This document shows, piece after piece, positions 2,378 through 12,869 of a stretch of 12,869 nucleotides of DNA; within the stretch, counting starts at the first letter, position 1; every line of letters starts with the position of its first letter. The position numbers and the translations under genes were made by a program. The stretch is from Pedosphaera sp. (GTDB lineage: Bacteria > Verrucomicrobiota > Verrucomicrobiia > Limisphaerales > SIBH01): contig JANOQV010000080.1 in assembly GCA_031414955.1 (NCBI GenBank), positions 1-12,869 of the forward strand, read 5' to 3'. Below the pieces are notes generated by a model. That model made no database searches, was not told where the DNA came from, and worked only from the letters and a program-made list of their open reading frames with translations.

Positions 2378-5300
2378 TCAGGGCACGGCCAGCCGCCAGA
2401 AGACCGGCAGGTCCGCCGGACTCGTCGTGAAGCTCTGCGGATTCAACTGGCTGGGCGCGGCGGTCCACGGGCCGCTGGGCGTGGGAGCGTATTGCAGTTC
2501 CAGGCCGGGCACGATGGGCAGCCAGTTCAGGTTCACCATGCCACCACCCTGACTGATGAAGAGCTGCGGGCCGCTCTCGGCTTGCAGTTGCAGGTCGAAG
2601 CTCACGTCGGAGGATGCCGCCGTGGTCTGGTGGATTTCCACCGCCACCAGGTTGTCGCCCGCGCGCAGCAGGGAGGCGTTGGTCGAGCCGCTGAAGAAGC
2701 TCACTTCGTCCGTCGCGTTCAGGGCCAGGTTGGTGAAGAGCACGGGCACGCCAGATCCGTTGGTCATGTTGCTGCGGAAGATTTCCACGCCGTTCAGATA
2801 CACCACGCCGCCATCGTCGCGGCGCAGGCGCACCACGAGATTCGAGTAACGCGCGGGATCAGCCACAGAGAAACCCTTGCGGAAGTAGGTGGTGATGATG
2901 CGCTGGCCATTCGTGCCGGTGCTGCGAATGACCGTCGCCTCGGGCAGGGCCGGGCCGTCGCCGTAGCCCAGTTCGGCCACGCCGTTGCTCCAGCCGGCGT
3001 CGTTGTAGGCATTGGTGCGCCAGAGCGTGCCCTGGTCGCTGCCGTCGTCGAGGTAGCGCCACGTCGAGTTCGAGTTGACCAGCGTGGTCAGCACGGAGGG
3101 CAGGATGACGGTGAAGGGCTGGTTCTGTGACACCGCGCTCAACCCGGTGTCGTCCGTGGCCACGGCCTGCACGTAGTGCGCGCCGAGCGAGACGCCGGTC
3201 CACAGGCCGGTGAAGGGCGCGTTCGTCACGCGACTGATCATCAGCCCGTCCACGTAGAAGTCCACGTTGGTCACGGTGCCCTCGGGGTCGCGGGCGGTGA
3301 CCAGCAACGGCAGGCCTCCCGCGTTGTAAGGCACGGTATTGGTCGGGCTGGTCACGGTGATGACCGGCGGCAGGATGCCGAAGTAGTTGCCCACCAGGTC
3401 GAGGTTGAAGCCCAGGTCGCTGCTGTTGGTGGCGGCCTGGTGAACTTCCGCCGCGAGCACATTCACGCCGTTCACCAGCGCGAGGCTGTTGGTGCTGAAG
3501 GTCCAGAACGTCTGCTCGTTCGCGGCGTTCACGGTGGCGGAGGCCAGCGAGCGGTAGTTCAAGGTGGCCTCGGCGTTCGTCATGTTGCGGCGGTAAATCT
3601 CCGTGCCGTTGAGATAGAGAATCACGCCGTCATCCACCTGAATCTGGCCGAAGAGGTTCGTGACAGCGACGGCGTTGGCCACGTTGAAGGTCTGGCGGAA
3701 GTAGAAAGTGACGAAGTTGCTGGCCGCGTTGGCGATGGCCGTGACCTCGCCGTCGCCGCCGAAACCGAGGCGCGCGACGCCGGTGCTCCAGGCCGAGTCG
3801 TTGAAGTTGGTGCCGCGCCAGGCCGTGCCCTGGTCGCTGCCGTCGGCCAGGTATTTCCAGGGGCCACCTTCGGCCAGGAGGCGCGTCGGAGGCGCGGAGC
3901 CCTCAACTGCGCCGATGTCGGGACCGGCCCCGATAGTGCGAGGAAAGCCGCGCTGGTCGGTAAGGAAGGAGGTGGCGGCAGCGGCATCAACGGCCGGCGA
4001 GCCGGGCATGGGCGGCATGGTGGGCGTGGGGCCGCCGTAGTTGCCCAGGGGGGCGAGCAGCGGATCGCCGGAGTTGAGATTAGCGCCCGTGCTGTTCAAC
4101 GTGGTTCGATTGATGATCTGATTGGGTGTGTTGCCGGCAACGATGGAATTGTGGAGGTTCAAAGTCCCCCAGTTGTAAATCCCACCCCCATCGAAGACCG
4201 CTGCATTCCCGGATATGGTGCTTTGATCCACGGTGAGCGTGCCGCCAGGGAGATAGTTATACAAGCCGCCGCCGTATAGGGCCCCATTGCCTGCCAGCGT
4301 GCATTGGATCACCGTCAAGGTGCTGTTGGAATTGTTATAGATGCCGCCGCCGTCAACACCCGACGAGTTGCCGGCCAACGTGCATTTGTTGAGCGTCAAG
4401 GATGCGCCAGAATTGTTGTAAACGCCGCCGCCCACGTTCGCGTTGGTCCCATTCACGATCGTCAGCGCGGTCAACACCACGGTCGAGCCACTATTCACTT
4501 CAAAGATGCGGCTGGCGTTATTGCCATTGATGGCAATGCCATTCGCCAGCCCCGAGCCATCAATGCTCAGGCTCCGGTTCAGGGTGATCTGGCCATTGGT
4601 CAGCCCGATGGTCTGGCCGGAGAGGCTCGGGTCAAAGGTGATGGTGGAGCCGACGGGGCAATACGTAACGGCATAGCGGAGCGACCCAGGACCGGAGTCG
4701 GCGTAATTGACGACCACCGGGCTGGCGTCCTGGAACTCCACCGCGCCGATGTCCGCGAACGGGCCGACGAGGCGCGCGAAACCACGCTGGTCGGTGGTGA
4801 AGCTGGTCGCACCGCCCGCATCAATGGCGGGCGAGCCGGGCAAGGGCGGCATGGTGGGCGTGGGGCCGCCGTAGTTGCCCAGCGGAGCGAGCGAGGGATC
4901 GCCGGTGGTGAGATTGTTGCTGCCGGCGACCGGATTGCCCGCGAAGTTGTTGGGGGAATTGCCCGCCACAATGGAGTTCGTCAGGGCGAGCGTGCCGAGG
5001 TTGTAAATCCCGCCGCCGTTCCCGGCCGAATTGCCCGCCACAGTGCATTGCAGAATGGTGAGTGTCCCATAGCTGCCGATCGCTCCCGCGTTGATGGCGG
5101 AATTGGTGGTGAGCGTGCATTGTGACATCGTCAGCGACGTGGCTCCGTCGCAATAAATCGCGCCACCCGCCGCGGAGCTATTGTTGTGCAAGGTCGCACG
5201 GCTGATGGACAAGGCGCTGCCCGAAGCGCAGTAGATCGCGCCCCCGTAACCATAAGCACCGCCACCGGCGTAACCGTTGACCAGCCTGAGGGAAACGAGC

Positions 5301-8300
5301 GCGTTCGTTGTTCCACCAGCCACGGTAAAAATACGCGAGGCACCACCATTGCCATCCAGGGTGATTCCGCCGGCCAAGGCCGAGGCGTCAATGGTCAGGC
5401 TCTTGTCCAGCGTCAGTTGCCCGTTGGTCAGCAGGATGGTCTGGCCGGACAGGTTCGTGGCAAAGGTGATGGTGGAACTGGACGCGGAAAACGCGATGGC
5501 CTCGCGGAGCGAAACGCCGTTCACATCCAGTCCGTCGATTGCGTCATTCGTGCTCGTCACCACCGTCGAGCCGGGAATGGCATGGCCTGATTCCACCGAG
5601 CCGATGTCCACGCCCGCGCCGAGGCTGCGGATGAAGCCGCGCTGGTCGGTGGTGAAGCTGGTCGCACCGCCCGCATCAATGGCGGGCGAGCCGGGCAAGG
5701 GCGGCATGGTGGGCGTGGGGCCACCGTAGTTGGCCAGGGGAGCGAGTAGCGGAGAGTTGGTGAGCGGGGCGGGATTGACCGGCGTGGGGTTGCCGTACTC
5801 GCCGTAAGTCTGGATGAGATTCATTCCCAACAGGGTCAGCCCGCCCTGGTTGTTAAACACATCCGAGGCGATCGAATTGATGTTGGTCTGCGGCGTGACA
5901 TAGCAGAAAATATCGGCTCCGAGACCATCCGGATAGACGCCAGTCGCCGTATTCCCGGACAACGTGCATTGGTTCACCGTCAGAGCCAGTCCGCGCACCG
6001 TCGCGATGGCGCCGCCACCGTCGGCCGAGTTGCCCTTAAAAGTGCATTGGTTCACCGTCAGCGTGCCCTCCCAGTTCATGATGCCGCCGCCGCCGCCGGC
6101 CGCCCAGTTGCCTGCCAGAGTGCAGCGGTTCACCACCAGGGTTCCCAGGTTGTAAATGCCGGCGCCGATGTTCGCCGGGTAGCCTCCGGGCGCGTAACCG
6201 TTGCTGATAGTCAGGGAGTTCAGAGCCACCGTGGCGTTCGTCGCCACCTCAAAGATCCGGCTCGCCTGGTTGCCGTTGATCGTGATGCCGTTGGGGAGCA
6301 TCGAAGCATCAATGGTCAGGCTTTTGTCCAGCGTCAGTTGCCCGTTGGTCAGCAGGATGGTCTGGCCGGACAGGTTCGTGGCAAAGGTGATGGTGGAACT
6401 GGGCGCGGAGAACGTGATGGCCTCGCGGAGCGAAACGCCGTTCACATCCAGTCCGTCGATTGCGTCATTCGTGCTCGTCACCACCGTCGAGCCGGGAATG
6501 GCATGGCCCGATTCCACCGAGCCGATGTCCACGAACGCCCCGACGAGGCGGAAGAAGCCGCGCTGGTCCACGTTGGTGAAGCTGGTGCCGCTGGTGCAGC
6601 CGTCGATGACCGGCGAGCCGGGCAAAGGCAAACACGTTGGCGTCGGCCCGCCGTAGTGGCCCAGCGGGGCCAGCAGCGGATTGCCGTTGGTGAAGTTGTT
6701 GCCCAGCGCGGTAAAAGTGCCGGTGGCGAAGGCGATGTCGGGGTGAACCGGGGCGCTGTTCCCGGCCACGATGGAGTTGTAAATGGTCAGGGTGCCGATG
6801 CCGGAGAACTTGACGACGCCACCGACGCCATTGGCACTCGAAGACGAGTTGCCGGTGACGGTGCTTTGATTCACGGACACCGTCCCGTCCTGAATGTCCA
6901 CCCCGCCGCCGCCATCGCCATCACAGGCATTGCCGCTCACGGTGCTCTGGTTGAGGGTGAGCATGCCGGCGTAATTCTCGATGCCGCCGCCATAACCGCT
7001 GGCCGAGTTGCCGGACACGGTGCTGTCGTTCAACGTCAACACGCCCTCGTTGTAAAGTCCGCCCCCGCCCACCCCGACGCCGGTGGCCGAACTGCCGGCA
7101 ACGGTGCAACGGTTCAAGGTCAAGTTACCCAGGTTGAAGACGGCTCCGCCCCGATCCGCCAACCCGTTCTTGAGAGTCAGCCCGGTCAGCACGTTGATCC
7201 GGCCGAGCAGCACGTTGAAGACTCTGGAGGCGTTCCCCGCATCGACGATGATCCCGTTGGGCAGCGACGAGGCGTCGATGACCAGGCTCTTCCTCAGGGA
7301 CAGTTCACCGCTGGTCAGCAGGATGGTCTGGCCGGAGAGCGTGTTGGTGAAGGTGATGGTGGAACCGACGGGGCAATACGCCACGGCATCGCGCAGCGAC
7401 CCGGGACCGGAGTCGTTGTTATTGAGGACCACCGGGCTGGCGTCCTGAAACTCCACCGCACCGATGTCCGCGAACGAGCCGGCGATGCGCGGGAAACCGC
7501 GCTGGTCGGTCGGGAAACTCGTGCCGCCCGTGCAGCCGTCGATGGCCGGCGAACCGGGCAAAGGCCGCATCGTCGCCGTGGGGCCACCGTAATTGCCGAG
7601 CGCGGCGAGCAGCGGCGCGGCAGAGATCGGGGCCGGGCCCGAGTATCCGCTGTTGATGGATTGAACGAGGTTCGATCCAGCAAACGTGAGCGTGCCGCTG
7701 TTGTGAATGTCCGCGCCCCCCGTGGTGGAAGTGTTCCCGGCCACGATGCTGTTGGTGACAGCGACCGCGCCGAGGTAGCTGAAAATCCCACCGCCCGCAC
7801 CGTTGCCGGCGGCGGGGGCTGAGTTGCTGACGATGGTGCAGTGCGAGACGGCCACCGAGCCACTGTCGTTGGCAATCGCGCCACCAAACGCGGCGGCGCA
7901 GGTGTTGGCAGTGAGCGTGCAGTTGACGAGGGAAATCGTGGCCGCAGCGGTGTTATTGAAAATCGCCCCGCCGTTGTTGGGGGAATAATTGCCCGTGAGG
8001 GTGCAGCCGGTGAGCGTGACCGGGGATTCCGCGTAAATCGCGCCGCCGTTGCCGCTGAGGGCAGTCCCGCCGCCGTACGCCAGGGTGAGGTTGCGCAGGG
8101 TGAGGTCGCCCGCGCCCGTGACATTGAAGAGGCGGAAATTTCCCGACGCGCCCTGGTCGGCCTTGCCCCGGAGGGTGACGCCACCGGCCAGGCCGCTGGC
8201 GTCAATGGTGAGGTTCTTCGTCAGCGCAATCTCGGAGAGGAACTGGATGGTCTGGCCGGAGAGCGTGTTGGTGAAGGTGATGGTGGAACCGACCGGACAA

Positions 8301-9808
8301 TACGCCACGGCATAACGCAGCGACCCGGGACCTGAGTTCGCGTTATTGACCACCACCGTGCTGGCGTCCTGGAATTCCACCGCGCCGATGTCCGCGAACG
8401 GGCCGGCGGGACGCGGGAAGCCGCGCTGGTCCACTGTGGTGGTGGAGCTGGTGGCGGCATTGATGGCCGGCGAGTTGGGCAAGGGCCGCATGGTGCGCAT
8501 GAGGCCGCCGTAGTTACTCAGCCCGGCCAGTTGCGCCAGCACCGGGAAGCCATTCGTGCCCACGTAGTCCCCGTTGCCATTCGGTGCGCCCACCGGCGCG
8601 ACCGCTTGGTAAAAGGACGGTTGCACTCCGATGATATTGTTCCCCGAACGAGTCAGCGTGCCACCGGCTCCGCCGATGTCCTCCCCGCCGAGATTATCCG
8701 GATTGCCGGCGATGATCGTGTTCTGGAGGGCGAGCGTGGCGCTGGATTCAAGCACGACTCCGCCGCTGCCGCCCGTGCCGGTGTTGCCAGAGACCGTGCA
8801 ATGAACCAGCGACGCGGCGGTGCTGTTCCTGAGCAAAAGGGCGCCCCCGAAGGCCGCCGTGTTTCCGGAGACCGTGCAGTTGTTCATGATGAGTTCGGAA
8901 CCGACGAACTGGCAGAAAATGCCGCCGCCGCCGGAAGCGGCGGAGTTGCTCGACACTGTGCAGGCGGTCAAGGTCAGCGACCCTCCGTTGAAAATGGCCC
9001 CGCCGTTGCCGTTTTCAATCCCGCTGCCGCCATTGCCGCCGGTGAGCGTGAGATGGCGCAGCACATTGGTCGTGCCGCCGAGGATGGTGAAGATGCGGTT
9101 GGCCCCCGGCCCGCCATCCAAGGTGAGTCCGCCGGGAAGGTTGGAGGCATCGAGGATGACCCCGGAGCCGAGGGCGATTTCGTTGGTGAGAGTGATGGTC
9201 GCGCCAGAGAGGTTGGGGGCAAAAGCGATGGCGCAGGGACTGCCATTGGTGCCCAGATCGAGCGCGGCCTGCCGGAGCGAGCCGGGGCCGCCGTCGAGGT
9301 TGGTGGTGACGGTGATGAGCGCTGGGACGAGGAAGCCGCGGGCTTCGCCGCCGCCGTTGTTGACCGTGTGGACATTCACGTAGTAGCGCCCGGCGAGCAG
9401 TTCCACGGCCTGCCCCGCGGTGAGCGTCACGTTGGTAACGATGGAGCCGGCGCTCGCCGAGTTGGACAGGCGCGGCAAATTGATCAGCACCCCGGCCGTC
9501 TGACTGAACGCCGCGATGCCGGAACCCGCCGTGGGTCCATGAATATGGGAGTTGTTCGCCGCGCTGCTCAGGTTGCTGAAACCATTGGCCGAACCCCAGC
9601 CGACATTGATGGAGAGCACGCGGGTGACGTCATCAAAGGTGATGCCCGCGCCGATCTCGCCACCGGTGCCGCCGATGATGGCGCCCGGCTCATTGGTGGC
9701 GAGCAGACCGGCGCCTCCGCGCCCGAGGAGATTGAATTGCACGACACCGGCCGAAGCCGACGTGACAAAGGCGCAAGCGAGCAGGGCGAGGAGTTTGATG
9801 AATTTCAT
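2378..9808 (-). CDS. Giant secreted/surface protein: signal peptide, CHRD, six beta-helix/choice-of-anchor-Q (CSLREA-like) modules, jelly-roll / Ig-like / jelly-roll domains, C-terminal FWRL tail
   Basis: 7.4-kb ORF. Sec-type signal MKFIKLLALLACAFVTSASA (ATG 9808; alternative GTG 9814). CHRD motifs HIHGP and GRYYVNVHT..GGGEARG (~9323-9748). Six copies of YGG.T.T..P.PGSP.....DQRGF.R.....DIG.VE, with GGAI/GGGI beta-helix repeats. Two W(K/R)YL.DGSDQG...DDG...YLNG.EI domains and an Ig-like PVITVTSP...DPEGTVTNVDFYVDG segment. Confidence 0.93.
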   Translation of the reverse strand: MKFIKLLALLACAFVTSASAGVVQFNLLGRGGAGLLATNEPGAIIGGTGGEIGAGITFDDVTRVLSINVGWGSANGFSNLSSAANNSHIHGPTAGSGIAAFSQTAGVLINLPRLSNSASAGSIVTNVTLTAGQAVELLAGRYYVNVHTVNNGGGEARGFLVPALITVTTNLDGGPGSLRQAALDLGTNGSPCAIAFAPNLSGATITLTNEIALGSGVILDASNLPGGLTLDGGPGANRIFTILGGTTNVLRHLTLTGGNGGSGIENGNGGAIFNGGSLTLTACTVSSNSAASGGGGIFCQFVGSELIMNNCTVSGNTAAFGGALLLRNSTAASLVHCTVSGNTGTGGSGGVVLESSATLALQNTIIAGNPDNLGGEDIGGAGGTLTRSGNNIIGVQPSFYQAVAPVGAPNGNGDYVGTNGFPVLAQLAGLSNYGGLMRTMRPLPNSPAINAATSSTTTVDQRGFPRPAGPFADIGAVEFQDASTVVVNNANSGPGSLRYAVAYCPVGSTITFTNTLSGQTIQFLSEIALTKNLTIDASGLAGGVTLRGKADQGASGNFRLFNVTGAGDLTLRNLTLAYGGGTALSGNGGAIYAESPVTLTGCTLTGNYSPNNGGAIFNNTAAATISLVNCTLTANTCAAAFGGAIANDSGSVAVSHCTIVSNSAPAAGNGAGGGIFSYLGAVAVTNSIVAGNTSTTGGADIHNSGTLTFAGSNLVQSINSGYSGPAPISAAPLLAALGNYGGPTATMRPLPGSPAIDGCTGGTSFPTDQRGFPRIAGSFADIGAVEFQDASPVVLNNNDSGPGSLRDAVAYCPVGSTITFTNTLSGQTILLTSGELSLRKSLVIDASSLPNGIIVDAGNASRVFNVLLGRINVLTGLTLKNGLADRGGAVFNLGNLTLNRCTVAGSSATGVGVGGGGLYNEGVLTLNDSTVSGNSASGYGGGIENYAGMLTLNQSTVSGNACDGDGGGGVDIQDGTVSVNQSTVTGNSSSSANGVGGVVKFSGIGTLTIYNSIVAGNSAPVHPDIAFATGTFTALGNNFTNGNPLLAPLGHYGGPTPTCLPLPGSPVIDGCTSGTSFTNVDQRGFFRLVGAFVDIGSVESGHAIPGSTVVTSTNDAIDGLDVNGVSLREAITFSAPSSTITFATNLSGQTILLTNGQLTLDKSLTIDASMLPNGITINGNQASRIFEVATNATVALNSLTISNGYAPGGYPANIGAGIYNLGTLVVNRCTLAGNWAAGGGGGIMNWEGTLTVNQCTFKGNSADGGGAIATVRGLALTVNQCTLSGNTATGVYPDGLGADIFCYVTPQTNINSIASDVFNNQGGLTLLGMNLIQTYGEYGNPTPVNPAPLTNSPLLAPLANYGGPTPTMPPLPGSPAIDAGGATSFTTDQRGFIRSLGAGVDIGSVESGHAIPGSTVVTSTNDAIDGLDVNGVSLREAIAFSASSSTITFATNLSGQTILLTNGQLTLDKSLTIDASALAGGITLDGNGGASRIFTVAGGTTNALVSLRLVNGYAGGGAYGYGGAIYCASGSALSISRATLHNNSSAAGGAIYCDGATSLTMSQCTLTTNSAINAGAIGSYGTLTILQCTVAGNSAGNGGGIYNLGTLALTNSIVAGNSPNNFAGNPVAGSNNLTTGDPSLAPLGNYGGPTPTMPPLPGSPAIDAGGATSFTTDQRGFARLVGPFADIGAVEFQDASPVVVNYADSGPGSLRYAVTYCPVGSTITFDPSLSGQTIGLTNGQITLNRSLSIDGSGLANGIAINGNNASRIFEVNSGSTVVLTALTIVNGTNANVGGGVYNNSGASLTLNKCTLAGNSSGVDGGGIYNNSNSTLTVIQCTLAGNGALYGGGLYNYLPGGTLTVDQSTISGNAAVFDGGGIYNWGTLNLHNSIVAGNTPNQIINRTTLNSTGANLNSGDPLLAPLGNYGGPTPTMPPMPGSPAVDAAAATSFLTDQRGFPRTIGAGPDIGAVEGSAPPTRLLAEGGPWKYLADGSDQGTAWRGTNFNDSAWSTGVARLGFGGDGEVTAIANAASNFVTFYFRQTFNVANAVAVTNLFGQIQVDDGVILYLNGTEIYRRNMTNAEATLNYRSLASATVNAANEQTFWTFSTNSLALVNGVNVLAAEVHQAATNSSDLGFNLDLVGNYFGILPPVITVTSPTNTVPYNAGGLPLLVTARDPEGTVTNVDFYVDGLMISRVTNAPFTGLWTGVSLGAHYVQAVATDDTGLSAVSQNQPFTVILPSVLTTLVNSNSTWRYLDDGSDQGTLWRTNAYNDAGWSNGVAELGYGDGPALPEATVIRSTGTNGQRIITTYFRKGFSVADPARYSNLVVRLRRDDGGVVYLNGVEIFRSNMTNGSGVPVLFTNLALNATDEVSFFSGSTNASLLRAGDNLVAVEIHQTTAASSDVSFDLQLQAESGPQLFISQGGGMVNLNWLPIVPGLELQYAPTPSGPWTAAPSQLNPQSFTTSPADLPVFWRLAVP
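4785..5722. repeat. Intragenic perfect 83-nt direct repeat (4785-4867 and 5640-5722)
   Basis: Identical sequence encoding GPTPTMPPLPGSPAIDAGGATSFTTDQR, offset 855 nt (in frame). Confidence 0.9.
5388..6533. repeat. Intragenic 225-nt direct repeat (5388-5612 and 6309-6533)
   Basis: Manual alignment gives 220/225 identical, offset 921 nt (in frame). Encodes the VDIGSVESGHAIPGS...SLREAI...LDKSLTID junction. Confidence 0.9.
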
Positions 9809-9926
9809 AAACACATTGGTTCGTTCACTAAGTTCTTTCGCGGAAACCCGCCGGTTGTTTCAAAGAAAGTGAAAAAAGTTTTAGGAGCAGGAAACGAGGT
9901 GTCCCGCTGCCGGATCGGGGAGGTGG

Positions 9927-10048: not shown

Positions 10049-10279
10049 ATGATTCAGCCGGAAGAACTGGTGGGCGGGGAATGGGCCGAGTGGTACCGGC
10101 TCACGCCAGTCCAGCGCTGGCTGGAAAGCGAGAAACTCTGGCAAACCTATCTCGCACTCGGAGGCTCACTTGATCCCGAACCCGATACGCAAAGTCCTTT
10201 CTTCGATGCGCGCGCACCGCGTCCGCGCCCTGCTCATGGGCGGACAGGCGTGCGTGTTTTACGGCGCGGCCGAGTTTAG
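10049..10279 (+). CDS. Small hypothetical protein (76 aa), putative partner/antitoxin of the downstream nucleotidyltransferase
   Basis: This is the 3' end of the long 8531..10279 shadow ORF. It reads MIQPEELVGGEWAEWYRLTPVQRWLESEKLWQTYLALGGSLDPEPDTQSPFF, is protein-like and Trp-rich, and fills otherwise empty space. Alternative ATG at 10004 has GGAGG at 9992-9996. Confidence 0.7.
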   Translation: MIQPEELVGGEWAEWYRLTPVQRWLESEKLWQTYLALGGSLDPEPDTQSPFFDARAPRPRPAHGRTGVRVLRRGRV

Positions 10280-10916
10280 CCGGGACACCGACCTCGCCAT
10301 CGTTGCTGACGCGGTCAACCTCGCGCGACTGCGAAAGACGCTGGCCGAGTTACAGGCTGAGGTCATCGCCGTTCCGCCTTTCGAGTTGAAATACCTGCGG
10401 CGCGGGCACGCCATCCACTTTCGTTGCCAGCATCCCGAGGCGCTGCGGATGCGGGTGGACGTGATGTCCCGAATGCGCGGCGTGGAGACGTTTCCGAGAC
10501 TGTGGAAGCGGCGCACCACCCTCGAACTGCCGGACGGCACGCGCTGTGATCTGCTTTCGCTACCCGACCTGGTGCAGGCGAAGAAAACGCAGCGGGACAA
10601 GGACTGGCCGATGATCCGACGGCTGGTAGAGGCGCACTATTTTCAGCACCGCACCCGGCCCGCACCCGCGCAAATCCGCTTCTGGCTCCAGGAACTCCGC
10701 ACGTCGGAGTTGCTTCTGGACGTCGCCCGGAGCCACCCCGCGCCTTGCCGGCGGCTGGCGGCCAAGCGCCCTCTGCTCGCCCACGCTGCGGGGGGGCAGG
10801 TTCGGAAACTGGAGCAGGCGCTGGCCGCTGAAGAAACGGCGGAGCGCGAGTTGGACAGGGATTACTGGCGTCCGCTGCGGGCGGAATTGGAGCGGCTGCG
10901 CCACGGCCCCAAGTGA
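10170..10916 (+). CDS. Pol-beta-superfamily nucleotidyltransferase-like protein (AbiEii/DUF6036-like), 248 aa
   Basis: N-terminal LLMGGQACVFYG...FSRDTDL (GG + DxD), a third Asp in MRVDVM, and DLVQAKKTQRDKDWPMIRRL (K..R.KD motif). TTG start with GGAGG at 10160-10164. Confidence 0.8.
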   Translation: MIPNPIRKVLSSMRAHRVRALLMGGQACVFYGAAEFSRDTDLAIVADAVNLARLRKTLAELQAEVIAVPPFELKYLRRGHAIHFRCQHPEALRMRVDVMSRMRGVETFPRLWKRRTTLELPDGTRCDLLSLPDLVQAKKTQRDKDWPMIRRLVEAHYFQHRTRPAPAQIRFWLQELRTSELLLDVARSHPAPCRRLAAKRPLLAHAAGGQVRKLEQALAAEETAERELDRDYWRPLRAELERLRHGPK

Positions 10917-10982: not shown

Positions 10983-12334
10983 TCACCGCTCCAAGAGACA
11001 ATCCGGCCGCGCCAACTCGAAGGCCGCGCTGCCCTCGGGCGTGACGCGCGTGCTGGCCACGGTCAGAGAGCGCAGGCTCGGCATCGTCGCGAGCTTCGCC
11101 AGTCCGGCGTCGGTCAGCGGGCAGCCTCTCAAGTGCAGTTTGGCAAGATGGGTCAGCGTGGTGGAGATCGCGGCGGCGGCCGCGTCGCCAAACGGCGTGT
11201 CGTTCGCGTTGAGTTCCCGCAAGCCGCCCAGCCTGGGCAGTCCCTCGGCCAGTCCTCCGGCCGTCAGGCGCTGGGAGTGTTCCAGGCTCAACGACCGCAA
11301 GGCATGTGCCCTGGCCAAGGATCGCAGCGCGATGTCGGTAATGCGCGTATCGCTCACGACCAGGCGATCCAGCTTCGGGCCGCCGGCCAGCGCCTCCACG
11401 GCGGCGTCTTCCAGCCCGGTGAAATAGAACTCGCCAACCTTCAAGGAAGGGAGCCACGCGGCGTTGGCGAACCCCCAGCCGGACAGGCGCGGAGCGTGAG
11501 CCAGCTTGAGATTCTCCAGCCGCTTCGGCCCGTAAATGTATTTCGCCATGCTCACCATGCCATCCGAAAGCCCTTCGCTCCCGTCAATTTGCAGGCGGTC
11601 GAGCTGGGTATTTTGTGCGAGAAAGGCGAAGCCCTCATCCGCCCGTCCGGGGAGCGTTTGCATGAAGACCGAGCGCAGCGTTGTGACGGAGCTGAGCACC
11701 TGGAATTCCCCGGCCGGCGGCACGGGCAAGTCGGAGGCCCACCGGTTAAACTCCAGGCCGGTAATTTGGAAGTCCTGCGCCGGGATGTCCTGTTCCCGCT
11801 TCACCTCGATCGTCCGGCCCGCCGTGGTGATCGTGAATTGCAATTGGTTCTTCGCCATCCACTGCGCGGCGGCGCGCACGGCGGGGAGGTCGGTTGGAGC
11901 AGGCATGGTGGGAGAGAATGCCGCTCGCGGCTTCGTGCCGGGTGCGACCGTGCCTTCCACCGCGCCGAGGTCGGGCGCGGGAAACCTCGCTGGTCGTTGG
12001 TGAACACGGAACTGATGGCGGCGTCGAGGGCCGGGCTGCCGGGCAGCGGCGGCATGGTGGCAGTAAGGCCGCCGTAGCGTCCCAAGGGGGCCAGGTGCGG
12101 GTCGCCGCTGGTCAGGTTGGCACCACGAAAGTTGTTCGGCGTGATGACTTCATCCGCATCGCGGTTGCCCGCGACGATGGAATTACCAAAGGTCAGCTCG
12201 GATTCGAACAGCCCGATCCCACCGGCCCATTCTTTGTCGCAGGAGTTGGCCGTAACGGTGCAATGGTTCAGATCGATTCGGCCGCGATGGCCCCGGATGC
12301 CGCCCGACTTGTTCGCCCGATTGTTCGCGACCGT
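10983..12334 (-). pseudogene. Disrupted gene: truncated choice-of-anchor-Q module frameshifted into a C-terminal leucine-rich-repeat domain
   Basis: 12334-~11976 encodes ...HCTVTANS...NSIVAGN...GANLTSGDPHLAPLGRYGGLTATMPPLPGSPALDAA...DQRGFPR. The expected continuation DLGAVEG lies in the frame of ORF 10983..11960, which carries LRRs (LDRLVVSDTRITDIALRSL; LAKLHLRGCPLTDAGLAKL; LRSLTVASTRVTPEG). The original 5' end is replaced by IS110 sequence. Confidence 0.8.
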
Positions 12335-12634
12335 GGCGGGCGGCTGGCTGGCCCGGCCGTAGGCGCTCAGGACGGGAGCGTCGATGGGATCGGTTTTGGC
12401 GCGCTGACCCAGGGCGCGAGCGAAGTGGCGCCCGCGCGCGGCGGCTTTTTCATAACCGCCGGTGGCTTCGCACACGATCTGGGCGGTGGGATGCTTGCGC
12501 AGGAGCTTGAGCAACTGCGCGTGGCCCTTGGGATCATTGGTGAGGGAGTGAGGCTGACCGGCCAGATCGAGTTGCAAGGAAGCTTTGGCAACGACGAGGC
12601 CGACGTAGAGGATGGACGTGTTGTTCTGACTCAT
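12335..12634 (-). mobile_element. IS110-family DEDD recombinase/transposase N-terminal remnant (inactive)
   Basis: YVGLVVAK (consensus GxDxxK, with Asp replaced by Val, codon GTC), CEATGGYE, FARALGQRAKTDPIDA.VL..YG...QP. The segment between YEK and RHFARA is short (the usual V.VVNP stretch is missing) and the C-terminal domains are absent. Confidence 0.88.
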
Positions 12635-12790
12635 ACTTGTCTGGATACGAGCCGAGCCGGCAGCAAGCTGACCCGCTCAAGCAACGGTTCGAGTTTGGAC
12701 CAACGAGCGAACGCGGAACGGGCTTTCGGACGCAGCGCCACTGGGCCTGCCAGGCATTCACGTTCCCGCGTTCGCCGCCGTGCGTACCCC
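12622..12790 (-). ncRNA. Candidate IS110 bridge RNA in the non-coding end upstream of the recombinase
   Basis: A 14-bp stem with one bulge (12707-12720 / 12761-12775) encloses an internal loop and an apical hairpin. A second internal-loop structure spans ~12622-12705. Both left loop strands end in CT and both right strands end in AG. The 5' boundary is uncertain. Confidence 0.65.
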
Positions 12791-12869
12791 AGGAGGGGGG
12801 GGGGCGGGCCCCACATACGGTTTTGGGTGGGGCCCAAAAGGAAGTTTGGAAGAGGAATAACACGGGGGG

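What the first reader, a model, noticed from the sequence alone, without database searches (positions are those of the whole stretch)
12622..12790. Readable IS110 bridge RNA: target and donor guides share a CT core
Seen (minus strand): gcgaacgcgggaacg-[TGAATGCCT]-g-gcaggcc-cagt-ggcgctgc-gt-[CCGAAAG]-cc-cgttccgcgttcgc, then aaactcga-[ACCGTTGCT]-tgagc..cagc-tt-gctg..gctc-gtatcc-[AGACAAG]-tATG. Established: IS621-type IS110 elements encode an upstream ncRNA with a target-binding loop and a donor-binding loop, in which the left guide matches the top strand and the right guide is the reverse complement, overlapping at a dinucleotide core. Inference: guides at 12752-12760 and 12723-12729 give target TGAATGC-CT-TTCGG, and guides at 12680-12688 and 12636-12642 give donor ACCGTTG-CT-TGTCT. 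Both loops independently give the same CT core. This would be a programmable RNA-guided recombinase ortholog, probably from a PVC-lineage host, with its specificity predicted from sequence alone.
Basis: partly seen in the sequence, partly recalled or inferred. Interest (0 to 1): 0.85.

Follow-up and report, generated by a model that had tools for sequence, protein, structure and literature searches.

The report
Bridge RNA of dead IS110 copy
This is a real guide RNA of a known kind of RNA-guided jumping gene (IS110), left on a broken copy; intact relatives show the guides can be read from sequence, but this copy can no longer move by itself.

Summary
12630-12790 (minus) is an IS621-type bridge RNA: a model built from 48 relatives, window left out, scores it 109.9 bits, and the stems covary. 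In intact relatives the same guide register predicts the real flanks: right target 140 of 160 bases against 52 when shuffled, left target positions 4-7 81 of 96 against 35. The left donor ACCGTTG-CT is confirmed at element right ends.

Three corrections. (1) The right donor is CT-TGTAT, not TGTCT: the guide pairs around a bulge (16 of 16 against 0 of 16). (2) The first three target bases carry little signal, so the supported target is about ATGC-CT-TTCGG. (3) This copy is dead: catalytic Asp changed to Val, 48-nt deletion, truncated near residue 103, no right end.

The window's own target could not be confirmed. No element with these guides was found, the genome has no exact site, and the expected left junction lies in a degraded contig end that does not match. 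Verdict: new member of a known system in Verrucomicrobiota; the useful leads are its intact relatives.

The parts
12630..12792 (-). [quoted passage not shown]
   Evidence: Model R1 hit over all 160 positions, 109.9 bits
12762..12779 (-). Target loop outer stem, 5' arm (pairs with about 12701-12719)
   Evidence: Fold; 13 of 14 pairs show changes on both sides in relatives
12752..12760 (-). Left target guide TGAATGC-CT; 12760 is probably a structural linker U, and 12757-12752 carry most of the specificity
   Evidence: Per-position test on relatives; linker inferred from the IS621 numbering in PMC11208158
12732..12750 (-). Target loop inner stem-loop
   Evidence: Fold; 3 of 3 tested pairs covary, 77% paired
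12723..12729 (-). Right target guide CCGAAAG, predicting CT-TTCGG
   Evidence: Same register predicts right flanks in relatives, 140 of 160 bases
12721..12722 (-). Target-loop handshake position (C could pair with G at donor position 7)
   Evidence: Position by analogy with IS621; the C is invariant in alignment A1; pairing inferred
12681..12688 (-). Left donor guide ACCGTTG-C (8 nt, as in IS621)
   Evidence: Right ends equal guide positions 1-7 in 53 of 58 relatives
12649..12678 (-). Donor loop inner stem-loop (GAGC...GCTC)
   Evidence: 4 invariant and 4 covarying pairs, 94% paired
12636..12646 (-). Right donor guide, discontiguous: AT (12646-12645), 4-nt bulge, ACAAG (12640-12636); predicts CT-TGTAT
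   Evidence: Discontiguous reading right in 16 of 16 guide/end types, contiguous in 0 of 16; same scheme as IS621
12620..12634 (-). Start codon and first codons overlap the predicted closing stem of the donor loop
   Evidence: Duplex -7.2 kcal/mol with 12691-12705; own partners pair better than swapped partners over 48 elements; RNA 3' end not measured
12326..12634 (-). IS110 recombinase remnant: RuvC-like N-terminus only, Asp14 to Val, 48-nt in-frame deletion at 12442, no coiled coil or Tnp domain; lower bound approximate
   Evidence: Pfam DEDD_Tnp_IS110 weak, E 1.6e-4, below cut-off; alignment; contigs of runs X1 and X2 match this stretch without differences
12782..12869 (-). 5' part of the left end, degraded; core expected at 12863-12862, where the window reads CCCCCC-GT-GTTAT
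   Evidence: Aligns without gaps to L124 and L042 at 51 of 88 and 52 of 87; not covered by the matching contigs of X1 or X2
11960..12330 (-). Unrelated fragment fused in frame after the truncation; resembles the repeat units of the 2478-aa protein at 2378-9814
   Evidence: tblastn E 5e-18 and further hits in C80, C238, C303

Best explanation
This is the left end of a decayed IS621-type IS110 element in a Verrucomicrobiota genome. When the element was intact, excision joined right and left ends into a circle junction ACCGTTG-CT-TGTAT that also forms a promoter. The bridge RNA was made from it and bound the DEDD/serine recombinase. The donor loop paired with that junction, and the target loop chose sites of about (nnn)ATGC-CT-TTCGG, with strand exchange at the CT core. 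Shown here: the RNA family and fold, the guide-to-flank rule in intact relatives, the donor sequence of the clade, and the lesions in this copy. Inferred: the chemistry (from IS621), expression, and this copy's own target. Today the copy cannot move by itself: no active enzyme, no right end, hence no circle and no junction promoter.
For: Model hit 109.9 bits with the window left out. Stem covariation 0.517 against 0.172 shuffled and at most 0.145 slid. Right guide against real flank, one element per distinct guide: 140 of 160, null 51.7 +/- 5.8, 0 of 10,000 shuffles; core CT in 54 of 55 right junctions. Left guide positions 4-7: 81 of 96, null 35.2. Five copies of one element in G059 are identical from CT-TGTATG to ACCGTTG-CT with differing outer flanks. 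An intact relative (L045) matches IS621 and ISCro4 recombinase chains, E 1e-38 and 2e-36. Rebuilt junctions give TTG-starting -35 boxes at a 17-nt spacer in 14 of 25 and TAnnnT in 14 of 25 (no shuffle control). Lesions.
Against: At the expected left junction the window reads CCCCCC-GT-GTTAT, not GAATGC-CT-TGTAT; I attribute this to a poor contig end but could not prove it. No exact 14-mer or 11-mer target in the genome (2 sites with one mismatch to the 14-mer; shuffled 11-mers average 2.3), whereas the siblings' 10-mer target occurs 148 times. No element with these target guides was found. Only 1 of 27 distinct left guides matched its flank 7 of 7. Relatives are not independent, so the shuffle figures overstate significance. 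No expression data.
Confidence: 0.88

Rival explanations
1. The RNA is a genuine bridge RNA, but its target guides drifted after the copy died, so the predicted target never existed as such.
For: No exact site in the genome. A 92%-identical undeleted relative in runs X3 and X5 differs at 12755 and 12727, one base in each target guide (40 of 117 difference rows shown). The coding part took at least three lesions.
Against: Stems, linkers, core bases and donor guides are all intact. Target guides vary widely among intact relatives anyway, with 32 distinct right guides among 55 elements, so differences do not imply decay.
Confidence: 0.25
2. The orphan RNA is still transcribed by read-through and lends a second target specificity to the intact sibling recombinases of the same genome (C204, C134), which share the donor sequence.
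For: Siblings have intact frames and end in ACCGTTG-CT. IS621 bridge RNA works in trans (PMC11208160 section 8) and is weakly made from linear copies (PMC13626964 section 5).
Against: RNA and coding parts are equally diverged from the nearest relative L124 (115 of 147 and 148 of 192), so no sign of selective keeping. The readable sibling flanks fit their own guides, not this one. The siblings are only 55% identical to the remnant protein. No junction promoter can form.
Confidence: 0.07
3. The remnant is an assembly chimera of an intact element, not a real broken copy.
For: It lies at a contig end of a metagenome-assembled genome (5.84% contamination), and the last 88 bases look error-prone.
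Against: Single contigs of runs X1 (12031-12781) and X2 (12031-12703) span the deletion, the Asp-to-Val codon and the fusion point with no differences. Both runs are of one study and may be the source, so this shows the reads support it, not independent occurrence.
Confidence: 0.04
4. The guide-like stretches and shared CT are chance features of a GC-rich hairpin region.
For: Single-sequence fold z-scores are unremarkable; no Rfam match.
Against: Model hit, covariation and guide-flank agreement.
Confidence: 0.01

Closest known systems
IS621 bridge RNA system (Durrant et al. 2024, PMC11208160, abstract and sections 5-8, 10, 12 read, supplements searched; Hiraizumi et al. 2024, PMC11208158, passages read)
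   Same: RNA in the left end upstream of a DEDD recombinase; two internal loops; CT core; 8-nt left donor guide; discontiguous right donor guide AT...CAAG; targets often in repeated extragenic sequences; junction promoter layout in intact relatives.
   Different: Different donor left half (ACCGTTG) and target. The 5' side of the target loop is 10 nt between the conserved G and the inner stem, against 11 by IS621 numbering. Natural specificity sits in left positions 4-7, whereas IS621 assays prefer matches at all nine non-core positions tested. The right donor bulge is 4 nt here (1-4 in relatives) against 2. The start codon overlaps the donor-loop end. This copy is non-functional.
ISCro4 / IS622 (bioRxiv 10.1101/2025.05.14.653916, passages read)
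   Same: Same architecture; its recombinase is hit by intact relative L045 at E 2e-36. That study predicted RNAs, targets and donors for 72 orthologues from sequence.
   Different: ISCro4 is 88% identical to IS621 and active in human cells; the Verrucomicrobiota clade is distant and untested. The term 'Verruco' does not occur in that preprint's main text (its supplements are closed).
IS1111-group elements
   Same: DEDD recombinase and a guide RNA.
   Different: Their RNA lies in the right end, with long sub-terminal inverted repeats (PMC11208160 section 12). Here the RNA is in the left end and the right ends of close relatives are a few bases long.

Membership tests
IS621-type bridge RNA | Located in the left non-coding end, upstream of an IS110 recombinase gene | tested here: met
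   Directly upstream of the remnant at 12634
IS621-type bridge RNA | Two stem-loops with internal loops, supported by covariation | tested here: met
   the donor-loop closing stem is supported only weakly
IS621-type bridge RNA | 5' stem-loop ahead of the target loop | tested here: inconclusive
   Visible in the sequences of relatives but broken in the degraded 12782-12869
IS621-type bridge RNA | Donor loop complementary to the element's own joined ends | tested here: met
   Met in relatives: 53 of 58 right ends, 16 of 16 right-donor types. This copy has no right end and an unreadable left end
IS621-type bridge RNA | Target loop complementary to the insertion site | tested here: met
   Met in relatives at the same register
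IS621-type bridge RNA | This copy's own flank matches its target guides | tested here: inconclusive
   The expected junction does not match but lies in a degraded contig end; the right flank is lost
IS621-type bridge RNA | Transcribed as an RNA that binds the recombinase | not testable with these tools
Autonomous IS110 element | Full DEDD motif (D11, E60, D102, D105 in IS621) | tested here: not met
   First Asp is Val in the window and Asp in 5 of 5 aligned relatives; loss of D11 abolishes IS621 activity
Autonomous IS110 element | C-terminal Tnp domain (PF02371) with catalytic serine | tested here: not met
   PF02371 found only on C204 and C134, not on C80
Autonomous IS110 element | Both ends present so that a circle and junction promoter can form | tested here: not met
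   The only ACCGTTGCT on the minus strand of C80 is the guide itself; unrelated sequence follows 12330
IS1111 group | Guide RNA in the right end | tested here: not met
   The RNA is upstream of the gene

The most novel reading that the evidence does not exclude
The broken copy acts as a stand-alone guide cassette: its intact bridge RNA is made by read-through and redirects the sibling IS110 recombinases, which share the donor ACCGTTG-CT-TGTAT, to a second target. Dead IS110 copies would then form a natural library of swappable guides, in a clade whose targeting rests on an 11-base site (4 + CT + 5).
Probability: 0.07. Interest if true: 0.65.

Novelty: new member of a known kind. Interest (0 to 1): 0.3.

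Why it matters
The locus itself is a fossil of a system described in 2024. Its value is as an entry to a Verrucomicrobiota clade of IS621-like elements, distant from IS621, that keep nearly one donor sequence while using many targets (32 distinct right guides among 55 elements). That is a natural demonstration of target-loop reprogramming, and intact members (L124, L045, L044, C204) are candidates for ortholog screens. The clade also hints at design rules: a short left seed, a donor-guide bulge of variable length, and a start codon inside the RNA end.

Tried and rejected
Rfam search: no family. Single-sequence folding: uninformative.

Search for an element with the same target guides found none. 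Metagenome pattern scan: 6 hits, all in unrelated sequence. Viral scan: 2 hits, unrelated. DNA search of 401 genomes of the order: best relative 81%. Predicted left-junction pattern in the same 401 genomes: matches in 62 genomes; 46 of about 91 places were examined with model R1 and none held a bridge RNA; the 9 of 15 places in G307 that were read are an unrelated repeat.

Model R1 was built with the inner target helix set in the wrong columns (29% paired). I corrected the columns for the pair count but did not rebuild the model. Donor-loop handshake base against target position 7: no consistent pairing in relatives, so it was not used. A sigma-70 scan of linear L045 found no promoter. No RNA holder was listed among public runs. 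Earlier findings of this scan: two look-ups returned nothing.

Literature: one search for IS110 + Verrucomicrob + bridge returned 1 paper on another subject, seen as a listing only. In the Durrant supplements, 9-mers like this donor's left half occur (26 places in file 5). The exact 14-nt donor, the donor-loop motif and the 11-nt target were not found, but files 3, 4 and 6 are cut, file 2 is unreadable and alignment gaps can hide matches, so absence from print is not shown.

Full report
Observation. The window is the whole contig C80 of a 6.55-Mb genome in 313 contigs. The quoted guides are present exactly as stated. The target loop folds as drawn, but no single-sequence z-score is significant, and the donor loop is not recovered by energy folding. 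Rfam has no family for it.

What lies downstream. The frame from 12634 begins as an IS110 recombinase (weak PF01548 hit) and is broken in three ways. The first catalytic Asp is Val, 16 residues are deleted in frame, and homology stops near residue 103. It then runs into a fragment resembling the repeats of the large protein at 2378-9814. There is no Tnp domain on C80 and no right end. Contigs of runs X1 and X2 cover 12031-12781 and 12031-12703 without differences, so the lesions are in the reads; both runs are from one study and may be the source.

Relatives. The genome holds intact paralogues on C204 and C134 and a left end on C115. More elements came from searches of 61, 401 and 401 partly overlapping genomes and one scan of the genome collection. 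The closest named ones are mostly titled Verrucomicrobiota. Five copies of one element in G059 fix the boundaries without any motif assumption: CT-TGTATG on the left, ACCGTTG-CT on the right.

Structure. I aligned 48 relatives without the window, chosen from 65 distinct RNAs by leaving out near-duplicates, two RNAs with deleted parts and a group with a different target loop. RNAalifold found the outer target stem and the inner donor stem. With the inner target helix added, 92.1% of cells pair (shuffles 73.0%), 20 of 25 pairs have changes on both sides, and the covariation score is 0.517 against 0.172 shuffled and at most 0.145 slid. Model R1, despite a misplaced inner helix, scores the window 109.9 bits.

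Guide test. Guides were parsed by structure alone. Of the loci with a recombinase hit, 76 lacked the donor-loop motif and 20 failed the parse; 65 distinct relatives remained. A few of these are visibly mis-parsed on the left guide. Right target: 55 of 65 had a readable right flank, with core CT in 54 of 55. With one element per distinct guide (32), 140 of 160 bases match against 51.7 +/- 5.8 in 10,000 shuffles, 18 of 32 are perfect, and offsets of 1-3 give 43-58. Left target: 38 of 65 were usable; 27 were dropped for a missing, short or doubtful left end. For 27 distinct guides 121 of 189 match against 67.1. By position the matches are 10, 10, 11, 21, 21, 24, 24 against 9.6, 9.0, 8.1, 7.2, 8.0, 14.1, 11.1 expected. 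In the window's loop class (24 guides), positions 4-7 give 81 of 96 against 35.2. Positions 1-3 give 27 of 72 against 22.6 (not significant), or 45 against 35.9 with G-U pairs (48 of 10,000 shuffles). Position 1 is T in 19 of 24 and lines up with linker U49 of IS621. The AG end of the right guide and the C after it were anchors of the parse and are no evidence. Kin are not independent, so the shuffles overstate significance, but the effect is large.

Donor. Right ends equal guide positions 1-7 in 53 of 58. The search motif fixes most letters; the commonest ends were ACCGTTG (43), ACAGTTG (7) and ACCGCTG (7). Guide positions 8-9 are CT in only 16 of 66, so the donor loop's left CT is not a rule; in IS621 this guide has 8 nt. 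Left ends begin CT-TGTAT in 34 of 38. My motif could not have found TGTCT, but the multi-copy boundaries and the nearest relatives with the same 4-nt bulge (L124, L042, L127) all read TGTAT. A discontiguous reading predicts the last two bases in 16 of 16 guide/end types and a contiguous one in 0 of 16. Two elements with CT in place of AT in the guide have TGTAG ends, a compensatory change. This is the IS621 scheme. The donor is therefore ACCGTTG-CT-TGTAT.

The window's own site. The left end aligns without gaps to L124 and L042, which puts the core at 12863-12862. There the window reads CCCCCC-GT-GTTAT, which does not match the prediction. The last 88 bases are only 58% identical to L124, against 78% in the RNA and 77% in the coding part. 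The differences are substitutions only, and 17 of 37 are to G on the + strand. The X1 contig stops at 12781. A failing read at the contig end is the likeliest cause (the G bias of two-colour sequencing is recalled knowledge), but decay is not excluded. The genome has no exact 14-mer or 11-mer site, and no element with these guides turned up. The target is thus a well-founded prediction, not a result.

Mechanism. By the IS621 model (PMC11208160 sections 5-8; PMC11208158 passages), excision forms a circle whose junction is a promoter; rebuilt junctions of relatives show a fitting layout in about half of 25 cases (no control). The RNA pairs with donor and target and the recombinase exchanges strands at CT. 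A recent preprint argues for single-strand excision and donor-only recognition (10.64898/2026.08.31.748434, abstract only). For this copy all of that is past. Use of the RNA in trans is possible in principle but has no support here. In 13 of 48 elements, the window included, the only Met before the first catalytic motif lies inside the predicted closing stem of the donor loop, so one transcript may have to serve as either guide or message; this is inference.

Verdict. It works like IS621, the RNA meets the family's testable features, and the locus fails the test for an autonomous element. New member of a known kind; interest 0.3.

Noticed in passing
L125 (G092:C9, upstream of the recombinase): A close relative with an open recombinase frame and both ends whose RNA lacks the whole target loop but keeps the donor loop; a natural case for donor-only activity or for borrowing a target loop.
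   Followed up: no
L174 (G431:C35): Left end shortened: the 5' hairpins are missing, both loops are kept, and the element sits in a site matching its guides; the recombinase match has one internal stop.
   Followed up: no
runs X3 (record 19) and X5 (record 28), window 12351-12811: An undeleted element about 92% identical to this copy, at depth 214 in X3, differing in at least one base of each target guide.
   Followed up: partly
L031-L033 (G059): Near-identical copies in one genome carry two different target-guide pairs, each fitting its own flanks: guide switching within a genome.
   Followed up: partly
L001-L003 (G000 C204, C134, C115): Sibling elements sit in a hairpin repeat; the 10-mer around their core occurs 148 times in the genome. 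The left end of the C204 copy reads CT-GGTAT next to another repeat and may be clipped or mutated.
   Followed up: partly
L127 (G139:C989) and L201 (G108:C368): A short repeat expansion right after the start codon of the recombinase in L127, and a similar start in L201.
   Followed up: no
L042: A 1194-base contig that is just one element of this clade, in a record titled Klebsiella; probably mis-binned.
   Followed up: no
window 2378-9814 (-): 2478-aa protein with an N-terminal CHRD domain, many internal repeats and an Ig-like domain, probably secreted.
   Followed up: no
window 10983-11960 (-): Leucine-rich-repeat frame of 325 aa directly after the fused fragment; it may itself lack its start.
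   Followed up: no
window 10170-10916 (+): 248-aa frame without a Pfam match, preceded by a short frame; by eye it resembles nucleotidyltransferase-like proteins (recalled, untested).
   Followed up: no
L241-L249 (G307): A dispersed repeat of several hundred bases (15 pattern matches in that genome, 9 read), unrelated to the bridge RNA.
   Followed up: partly
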